DNA from: Chara braunii
Taxonomy: Eukaryota > Plantae > Charophyceae
Direction of reading: 5' to 3'
Length of the DNA stretch: 64,000 bases
Assembly: GCA_003427395.1 (NCBI GenBank)
Contig: BFEA01000001.1
Location: 1,694,280-1,758,279, forward strand
In this document: piece by piece, positions 10,766-11,315 of the stretch
How the letters are laid out: the number at the start of each line of letters is the position of its first letter
How positions within the stretch are numbered: the first letter of the stretch is position 1
Notes under the pieces: model-generated
Told to the model about the DNA's origin: nothing
Database searches by the model: none
What the model saw: only the letters and a program-made list of their open reading frames with translations
Program-made: the position numbers and the translations under genes

Positions 10766-11315
10766 CGCGGGTGCACCGTCCAGCAACCACGGTCTACTGT
10801 AGAAGTGAGTGTGAGCATGAGTAATGGGCCCAGTAAAAGGCTGATCTGCGCCTGGGCAGCACCCAGGACACCTGGGCGGGACCGCAGTGTGGTTTTTGTT
10901 TCGCTTGAAACCCTCCCTCACGATGGTCTTCAAAGTTCTCATTTGAATATTTACTACTACCAACAAGATCTGCGTTGGGGCCCGCCTCACGTAAGCCCAT
11001 GCCTTAGGCTTTGCAGCAAGCTCGCTCCCTCCCACTCCTTGAGGAGTCGAAATAGTCGCGGGCAGCCAGGCGTAGGCTGCACTCTTCTGCGGGATTTCGG
11101 ACGTCGTGACCGCCGGTTTGCTGTCTGTGCTAACGGAACACCCGTTGTGATGTCTGGGTTAGTACACAGCCCATGTCAACGGGGTGGATGCTAGTAGTGA
11201 GCCGCTATGCCACAGATTTGCAAATCGTTCGTCGGCCTCGGGTATAGGGATGAAAGACTAATCGATCTGCCTAAGGTAGATCTCCCTTAAAGTCTCCCTC
11301 AGGCCGACAGGAGCA
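10766..11315. pseudogene. Mosaic of three 25S/28S rRNA fragments (+ 10766-10860, - 10925-11090, + 11219-11315)
   Basis: GTCTTCAAAGTTCTCATTTGAATATTTACTACTACCAACAAGATCTGC (antisense LSU), GCAAATCGTTCGTC...GGGTATAGGGATGAAAGACTAATCGA...TCCCTCAGG (sense LSU) and GGGTGCACCG...GAGTGTGAGCATG (sense LSU). Confidence 0.85.

What the first reader, a model, noticed from the sequence alone, without database searches (positions are those of the whole stretch)
10766..11315. LTR built from a scrambled mosaic of 25S/28S rRNA segments
Three LSU rRNA pieces lie in sense-antisense-sense order just inside the LTR start. Homologous pieces recur in the related elements at 3591-3920 and 4960-5630, so capture predates family diversification and is propagated by transposition. 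5S-bearing Cassandra LTRs and 28S-derived SINEs are known; LSU mosaics in long LTRs are not known to me. Possible roles (inference): ribosome or nucleolar mimicry, use of rRNA fragments as primers or guides, or antisense small-RNA production.
Basis: partly seen in the sequence, partly recalled or inferred. Interest (0 to 1): 0.8.

Follow-up and report, generated by a model that had tools for sequence, protein, structure and literature searches.

The report
Ribosomal RNA scraps inside retrotransposon ends
The long end-repeat of a jumping gene, likely from the stonewort alga Chara, carries three worn pieces of 25S ribosomal RNA (forward, reversed, forward); relatives carry similar pieces or a U6 RNA copy at about the same spot, likely picked up during reverse transcription and carried along as passengers, with no function shown.

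Summary
Observation confirmed and widened. The LTR starting at 10199 (about 5.5 kb, TG..CA, PBS-like TGG after its end) holds LSU rRNA as sense 10689-10889, antisense 10900-11169 and sense ~11170-11315; the two sense pieces nearly adjoin in 25S rRNA, with the antisense piece between them. Related LTRs carry the same LSU regions (3546-3909, 4950-5680) or a full-length promoterless U6 copy (6720-6621) at a comparable position. Genomic contigs show these termini are multi-copy and that other loci carry the modules (an 89%-identical copy of 4937-5456; two further contigs over the 10689 junction), so this is not locus-specific rDNA debris. Not supported: that one capture predates diversification (shared derived changes are at chance level), or any function: paired and unpaired conserved rRNA sites changed equally (28% vs 27%), no wobble bias in antisense pieces, RNA reads on the pieces are host 25S rRNA. 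Best reading: RT template-switch capture into an LTR slot, spread and reshuffled by transposition, probably neutral; patchy near-host stretches hint at re-copying. I found no paper on LSU pieces in LTRs; this scan noted another captured RNA in a Chara repeat. New variant of known RNA capture.

The parts
10199..18718 (+). E1: long LTR (5495 nt without the nested insert), TGTCG start, TGACA end
   Evidence: sequence; length; homologous to E3 at 11698-12095, 13651-14204, 14845-14982; partner LTR not in the window
10206..10231 (+). 11-pair terminal hairpin shared by the four LTR starts
   Evidence: (4 sites; shuffles mean 0.12)
10689..10889 (+). S1: sense LSU piece, L027 658-866 (firm core 10753-10857)
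   Evidence: two other genomic contigs cover 10688-10712
10900..11169 (-). AS: antisense LSU piece, L027 1178-1502
   Evidence: (E 9e-21)
11170..11315 (+). S2: sense LSU piece, L027 ~835-972 (firm core 876-960; its start is read by eye)
   Evidence: (E 4e-10)
18721..18735 (+). PBS-like motif (TGG 2 nt after the LTR end); cognate tRNA not tested
   Evidence: sequence
15657..18677 (.). F5: insert nested in E1 with 134-nt inverted ends and a 4-nt CCGA duplication
3288..4825 (-). E4: 1538-nt solo-LTR-like element nested in E3; 5' part like E2/E3, last ~267 nt 87% identical to 20165-20440
   Evidence: 3288 is a many-copy end (123 contigs with unlike flanks in X3)
3697..3909 (-). E4 sense LSU piece, L027 640-856
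   Evidence: host 25S reads lie on it at mostly 90-95%
3546..3682 (+). E4 antisense LSU piece (rRNA-sense on +), L027 ~1385-1530
   Evidence: (E 9e-20)
4826..6403 (-). E3: LTR 5' part, continues below 3287 after the E4 insertion
   Evidence: 6403 is a many-copy end (124 contigs in X1)
4950..5681 (-). E3 sense LSU pieces: L027 671-801 (5681-5565), 780-977 (5345-5148), 822-975 with inserts (5149-4950)
   Evidence: a 521-nt contig with 57 other letters spans 4937-5456
6404..7701 (-). E2: LTR 5' part collinear with E4
   Evidence: score 385 vs shuffled max 101
6621..6720 (-). near full-length U6 snRNA copy in E2, starting at U6 nucleotide 1, no TATA or USE-like motif in 80 nt upstream, no poly(A) tail
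   Evidence: (61 bits, E 6.4e-13)

Best explanation
These are old fragments of the host's 25S rRNA lying in the 5' part of an LTR of a multi-copy retrotransposon family, likely written in when reverse transcriptase switched template onto co-packaged host RNA, then inherited and reshuffled with the LTR as probably neutral passengers. Inferred steps: a switch during minus-strand synthesis would give sense pieces; a switch of the nascent plus strand onto rRNA would give the antisense piece; the return to a point about 30 nt upstream would explain why S1 ends at LSU ~866 and S2 restarts near 835. Whatever lands in the LTR is copied into daughter elements; later switches between co-packaged element RNAs would give the variants (E4 = module joined to another LTR 3' end; E3 = doubled sense piece). 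Once present, a piece offers homology to rRNA, so parts may be re-copied later (suggested, not shown).
For: Pieces significant. Three related LTRs carry the same two LSU regions, and no SSU, 5.8S, 5S or other LSU part was detected in the window (3 hits at E<=1, only one below 0.1, and that one extends the antisense piece). E2, E3 and E4 are collinear from their starts to a T-rich tract, after which comes U6 or LSU; U6 begins at its first nucleotide without promoter, pointing to an RNA template. E1 and E4 both end S1 at LSU ~866 before the antisense piece; E1 and E3 both end a sense piece at ~972 and are homologous further down the LTR. Other loci carry the modules (89%-identical contig over 4937-5456; 2 contigs over 10688-10712; summed depth 490-2100 on E4's pieces and 1430 on its flank where single contigs run at about 7-13; joint 3614-5564 in 2 and 3 contigs puts an E3-type S1 beside an E4-type antisense piece). 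Host 25S, seen in RNA-read loose ends, fits the pieces better than angiosperm-type L027 does (read by eye). Changes are balanced transitions (A>G 0.21, T>C 0.19, C>T 0.17, G>A 0.15), not the C>T/G>A excess expected of dead methylated DNA (expectation from general knowledge). No sign of constraint: conserved sites changed in 103 of 370 paired and 133 of 485 unpaired positions. Precedent: retroviruses package U6 and 5S and patch host RNA into their DNA by template switching (PMC4997597, passages).
Against: No full element with two LTRs and no polyprotein of this family is in the window, so duplication into both LTRs is inferred. No shared derived substitutions beyond chance. A weak excess of kept pairs remains (90 vs 84.3 of 112 conserved pairs, p 0.015), and the best-kept windows coincide between independent copies (L027 876-915 in E1 and E3; 1427-1481 in E1 and E4), which neutral decay does not predict, though host-versus-reference differences and alignment bias could cause both. 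A T-rich 10-nt linker and the ~30-nt repeat around the antisense piece also fit a LINE-type insertion. E1's 5' flank does not align with those of E3 or E4, so the 'same slot' is firm only for E2-E4. Depth sums are not copy numbers.
Confidence: 0.55

Rival explanations
1. LINE-type target-primed insertions of rRNA fragments and U6 (processed pseudogenes, possibly twin-primed) landed in LTRs and were then spread by the LTR element.
For: T-rich linker at the 3' end of E1's antisense piece could be a decayed poly(A); ~30-nt diverged duplication flanks it; LINE-like ORFs are in the window (zf-RVT, weak); 28S/LINE-1 and U6/LINE-1 chimeras, some antisense, are known in mammals (PMC13174262, passages); Kojima suggests SINE insertion into an LTR as origin of TRIMp3 (PMC10886601).
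Against: U6 copy has no poly(A) tail; E4's antisense piece runs on past LSU 1502 without a T-run; insertions at random sites would not pile up at one LTR position.
Confidence: 0.17
2. The rRNA pieces are a selected module: the element RNA would use them to fold like or pair with 25S rRNA (ribosome tethering, nucleolar routing, priming) or to blunt silencing, and they are kept or repeatedly refreshed for that reason.
For: Same two domain-II regions recur in three subfamilies whose other flanks are much diverged; coinciding best-kept windows; kept-pair excess p 0.015; about 7 differences in 92 nt between E4's S1 core and host 25S (counted from a truncated table and a loose-end line) against ~28% change elsewhere (binomial 1e-6, window chosen after the fact).
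Against: 24-47% of near-invariant rRNA positions changed or lost; paired not protected over unpaired; both-side compensations 5 vs 3.1 expected, p 0.18; E1's own three pieces show no kept-pair excess over all pairs (p 0.27, 0.81, 0.18); no wobble bias in antisense pieces (18:11 vs 51:38, p 0.67); the slot can hold U6 instead; most family termini lack close matches to these modules (depth 19,000-70,000 at starts vs ~30-2000 on modules).
Confidence: 0.15
3. DNA-level capture: a ~900-nt rDNA fragment (LSU 640-1540) entered an ancestral LTR as break-repair filler, was then inverted and deleted internally, and spread with the element.
For: All pieces fall within one 900-nt LSU interval; shared junction positions in E1/E4 and E1/E3.
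Against: Does not explain the promoterless U6 starting at nucleotide 1, nor uneven closeness to host rRNA within one piece; no shared derived changes.
Confidence: 0.1
4. Locus-specific rDNA pseudogene debris into which elements happened to insert.
For: The three LSU-bearing elements lie within 8 kb of each other.
Against: Other genomic contigs carry the modules with their flanks; pieces are inside LTRs at comparable offsets; no 18S, 5.8S or contiguous rDNA order; pieces are 46-65% identical to each other.
Confidence: 0.03

Closest known systems
Cassandra, Ajax (5S) and Helenus (tRNA) TRIMs, 'TRIMp3' (PMC10886601: first sixth of the text and term look-ups; PMC10946416: section 11 and passages)
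   Same: Host structural-RNA sequence inside LTRs, inherited by retrotransposition.
   Different: Those are <1 kb TRIMs keeping a Pol III internal promoter; here LTRs of 1.5-5.5 kb hold Pol I-derived 25S pieces in both orientations, heavily eroded, with no promoter function evident. Table 2 of PMC10946416 lists no LSU-bearing LTR.
Host-RNA patching in retroviruses (PMC4997597, passages)
   Same: Packaged abundant non-coding RNAs (U6, 7SL, 5S) copied into viral DNA by template switching.
   Different: There mostly single recombinants; here modules became fixed in multi-copy genomic subfamilies of an algal retrotransposon.
28S/LINE-1 and U6/LINE-1 chimeras (PMC13174262, passages) and SINE28 (named in PMC10946416; original paper not seen)
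   Same: LSU fragments of a few hundred nt and full-length U6 joined to a retroelement, sense or antisense.
   Different: Non-LTR, mostly one-off insertions with poly(A) and TSD; here internal to LTRs, multi-piece and propagated.
Non-chromovirus Ty3/gypsy (Ogre/Tat/Athila) LTRs (PMC6317226, passages)
   Same: TG..CA ends, TGG-starting PBS 0-5 nt after the LTR, long non-coding parts, non-Met primer (motif resemblance to tRNA-Arg and tRNA-Asp PBS types is recalled, not tested).
   Different: Clade is defined by RT/RH/INT, which this family does not show in the window; duplications seen are 4 nt or imperfect, whereas 93% of plant elements in that survey have 5 nt.

Membership tests
LTR retrotransposon LTR | TG...CA termini that recur as element ends | tested here: met
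   E1 10199/18718, E4 4825/3288; 3288 and 6403 are ends with 123-124 unlike flanks
LTR retrotransposon LTR | PBS complementary to a tRNA 3' end just after the 5' LTR | tested here: inconclusive
   TGG 2 nt after E1's end; PBS-like core in a low-agreement loose-end line at 3288; no host tRNA set to match
LTR retrotransposon LTR | Two LTRs flanking an internal region, PPT before the 3' LTR | tested here: inconclusive
   No second copy of E1's LTR in the window; no genome held
LTR retrotransposon LTR | 4-6 nt target-site duplication | tested here: inconclusive
   E4: GCGC(A) repeated but with 1-2 extra nt at one end; F5: CCGA; E1-E3: other end not available
Ogre/Tat/Athila clade | RT-RH-INT phylogeny, aRH, extra ORFs | not testable with these tools
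   Pfam scan of 19 of the 57 ORFs >=150 aa found gypsy-type domains only in a separate element at 56.7-60.1 kb; tblastn of 6 integrase proteins hit only 53.5-58.1 kb
Cassandra/Ajax/Helenus (TRIMp3) | 5S- or tRNA-derived Pol III promoter in the LTR | tested here: not met
   No 5S and no tRNA in the window
Cassandra/Ajax/Helenus (TRIMp3) | Element shorter than about 1 kb | tested here: not met
   LTRs alone are 1538 and 5495 nt
LINE-made rRNA/U6 retrocopy or SINE28 | 3' poly(A) tail and flanking TSD | tested here: inconclusive
   T-rich 10-nt linker and diverged ~30-nt repeat at E1's antisense piece; none at U6 or E4
rDNA pseudogene | Collinear 18S-5.8S-25S order, one orientation | tested here: not met
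   Only LSU 640-980 and 1178-1540, in mixed orientation
Functional rRNA mimic | Protected pairing and compensatory change | tested here: inconclusive
   Paired = unpaired change rate; compensation p 0.18; kept pairs p 0.015; host 25S not available as reference

The most novel reading that the evidence does not exclude
This LTR family has a standing RNA-capture slot into which reverse transcriptase repeatedly writes host 25S rRNA on either strand, old pieces guiding fresh re-copying by homology, and the recurring domain-II stretches are kept because they let the element RNA pair with or imitate the ribosome.
Probability: 0.2. Interest if true: 0.75.

Novelty: new variant of a known kind. Interest (0 to 1): 0.5.

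Why it matters
It extends ncRNA-bearing LTRs from Pol III promoters (5S, tRNA) to 25S rRNA and U6, and leaves a genomic record of which host RNAs retrotransposon particles copy. A multi-copy family with modules of differing age would make two things countable in one genome: how often RT switches to host RNA on each strand, and whether captured rRNA is re-copied or selected. Practically, such LTRs can pass for rDNA pseudogenes and attract rRNA reads in expression work.

Tried and rejected
Rfam scans miss the finding's own pieces; the SNORD35 and Ms_AS-1 hits are chance-level. No genome held. Family motifs found nothing in viral contigs or metagenomes. Run search: 4 DNA holders of one sample, no RNA holder listed. 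Reads were laid on 3200-10880 only, so copy depth and expression of E1's antisense and second sense pieces are unknown. Expression: of 513 (X5) and 1893 (X7) laid reads 2 and 0 were >=99% alike, 77% and 75% run on as unlike sequence whose loose ends are 25S rRNA; 6% and 13% of these oligo-dT runs were read, from other samples, so this neither shows nor excludes transcription. Shared-derived test: negative (one shared change plus a 1-nt deletion in E3 and E4 at a conserved motif is suggestive only). One search had a mistyped structure line and is discarded; one search replaces it. The all-pairs excess (203 vs 187.5) is set aside because host-versus-reference covariation inflates it. A-specific hypermutation rejected (balanced spectrum). 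E3's 225-nt gap does not match the antisense piece. A PBS pattern search of the window gave a chance-level result. None of the fetched LSU rows in the alignment carried the three host-type motifs tested, so no host 25S reference was available. Literature searches (listings only, apart from the five papers named) showed no LSU-bearing LTR; the library lacks most subscription papers and Repbase, and no supplements were read. Scan notes: nothing near, by words or by sequence.

Full report
Host and setting. The window is eukaryotic and repeat-rich. A neighbouring, unrelated gypsy integrase has Chara braunii proteins as its three best hits of six (54-64% identity), so the host is likely a stonewort; earlier scan notes on this genome say the same. 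No whole genome is held.

The observation. Rfam did not call LSU within the finding but did at 5325-5185. I fetched 51 loci with eukaryotic LSU rRNA; L027 spans Rfam model 14-2241 and serves as ruler. BLASTN, a 47-row profile and shuffled local alignments show three pieces: sense 10689-10889 (L027 658-866; weakest, profile E 0.055 but score 119 vs shuffled max 72), antisense 10900-11169 (1502 to 1178; E 9e-21) and sense about 11170-11315 (~835-972; E 4e-10). The two sense pieces are nearly continuous in 25S rRNA, overlapping by about 30 nt, with the antisense piece set between them. Queries from SSU, 5.8S, 5S and the remaining LSU parts found nothing else below E 0.1 (non-host references, limited sensitivity).

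The elements. A terminal hairpin marks four LTR starts (4 sites, shuffles 0.12): E1 at 10199 (+), and E2, E3, E4 at 7701, 6403, 4825 (-), nested one in another. E1 runs to TGACA at 18718, followed after 2 nt by a TGG primer-site-like motif; without a nested 3-kb insert it is 5495 nt. E1 and E3 are homologous downstream of their modules. E4 is 1538 nt and ends in a different LTR 3' part shared with 20165-20440 (87%), the switch falling where its antisense piece stops. E2, E3 and E4 are collinear from the start to a T-rich tract, after which E2 has a U6 copy from nucleotide 1 without upstream promoter motifs, E4 has sense plus antisense LSU, and E3 has sense LSU with ~820-975 twice. E1's own 5' flank does not align with them beyond the first ~50 nt. 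No partner LTR and no polyprotein of the family is in the window, so the clade is open.

Copies elsewhere. Genomic contigs of two runs of one sample were laid on 3200-10880. Positions 3288 and 6403 are ends shared by 123-124 contigs with unlike flanks. Summed depths in X1 are 19,000-70,000 in the bins of three LTR starts (3,550 at E2's) and 113,000-171,000 at the E4-type end, 490-2100 at listed places on E4's pieces, about 50 over E1's first piece and 30 over E3's doubled piece, where single long contigs run at about 7-13; the tool warns that such sums are no copy numbers, and true rDNA contigs inflate two bins. A 521-nt contig with 57 differences spans E3's doubled piece, two contigs with other letters cover E1's flank-rRNA junction, and 2-3 contigs join an E3-type first piece to an E4-type antisense piece. 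So modules travel with the element, but each version marks a minority of a very large family. E1's antisense and second sense pieces lay outside the stretch laid, so their copy depth is unknown.

RNA. Reads from two oligo-dT runs that lie on the pieces are host 25S rRNA (75-77% run on unlike; loose ends continue as rRNA); 2 of 513 and 0 of 1893 laid reads were 99% alike or more. A low signal on the element strand covers the E4-type LTR end. The loose ends show that host 25S resembles the pieces more than L027 does (read by eye), so the source is the host lineage's own rRNA. E4's first piece differs from it at about 7 of 92 nt in its core, whereas only 34 nt of E1's first piece took host reads: the pieces are unevenly aged or unevenly kept.

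One capture or many. At columns conserved in at least 90% of references, no pair of pieces shares more derived bases than chance (12 pairs, p 0.28-1.0); pieces are 45-65% identical to each other and 62-75% to L027. Shared end points (S1 at ~866 in E1 and E4; ~972 in E1 and E3) argue for common origin; the star pattern says the lineages split soon after, or that pieces were re-copied. Changes are balanced transitions, fitting divergence in a replicating lineage rather than decay of dead methylated DNA (inference).

Function. Using Rfam's structure, conserved sites changed in 103 of 370 paired and 133 of 485 unpaired positions; kept pairs 90 vs 84.3 expected of 112 (p 0.015); both-side compensations 5 vs 3.1 (p 0.18); E1's pieces show nothing significant. 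Antisense pieces have no bias to wobble-preserving change (p 0.67). Best-kept windows coincide between copies (significant in 2 of 7 pieces, one inflated by deletions). This leaves selection possible but unsupported; the missing host reference weakens the tests both ways.

Mechanism. Shown: rRNA and U6 pieces inside related, multi-copy LTRs, at comparable offsets, with shared junction positions and modular exchange. Inferred: capture by RT template switching to co-packaged RNA, on the minus strand for sense and the plus strand for antisense pieces; copying into daughter LTRs; later inter-element switches; possible re-copying from rRNA. Confidence 0.55; rivals are LINE-made insertions later spread by the LTR (0.17), a selected module (0.15), DNA-level capture (0.10) and local debris (0.03).

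Known relatives. It works like host-RNA patching in retroviruses (PMC4997597, passages) and resembles Cassandra, Ajax and Helenus in having structural RNA in LTRs (PMC10886601, first sixth and look-ups; PMC10946416, passages and section 11), but fails their defining features. 28S and U6 chimeras with LINE-1 are the non-LTR parallel (PMC13174262, passages). LTR conventions are from PMC6317226 (passages). Eight searches listed no LSU-bearing LTR, within an open-access library only. Verdict: real, a new variant of a known kind, function not shown; interest 0.5.

Noticed in passing
window 6621-6720 (-): Near full-length promoterless U6 copy inside sister LTR E2, at a position comparable to the LSU modules.
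   Followed up: partly
window 15657-18677: 3-kb insert with 134-nt inverted ends (94%), TGT..ACA termini and a 4-nt CCGA duplication; its ends resemble the family's LTR 3' end. Either two LTR ends head to head or a Ginger-like DNA element (name recalled).
   Followed up: partly
window 3288-7701: E2, E3 and E4 are nested, each inserted 1.3-1.6 kb inside the previous LTR just past its captured module, next to GCGC or CCGC; hints at self-targeting.
   Followed up: no
The matching part of E3 (142-663, 1215-1450) has a repeated motif with a different core.
   Followed up: partly
window 3288-3554 and 20165-20440: Very high-copy LTR 3' end folding at about -110 kcal/mol over 270 nt (no shuffle control), with low-level element-strand RNA reads.
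   Followed up: no
window 55202-63578: Separate decayed gypsy element with ~1-kb direct repeats, protease and integrase, nearest to Chara braunii proteins.
   Followed up: partly
L002-L051: Fifty contigs in bacterial genome records hold eukaryotic LSU rRNA, i.e. contamination; the scan estimated about 330 such stretches.
   Followed up: no
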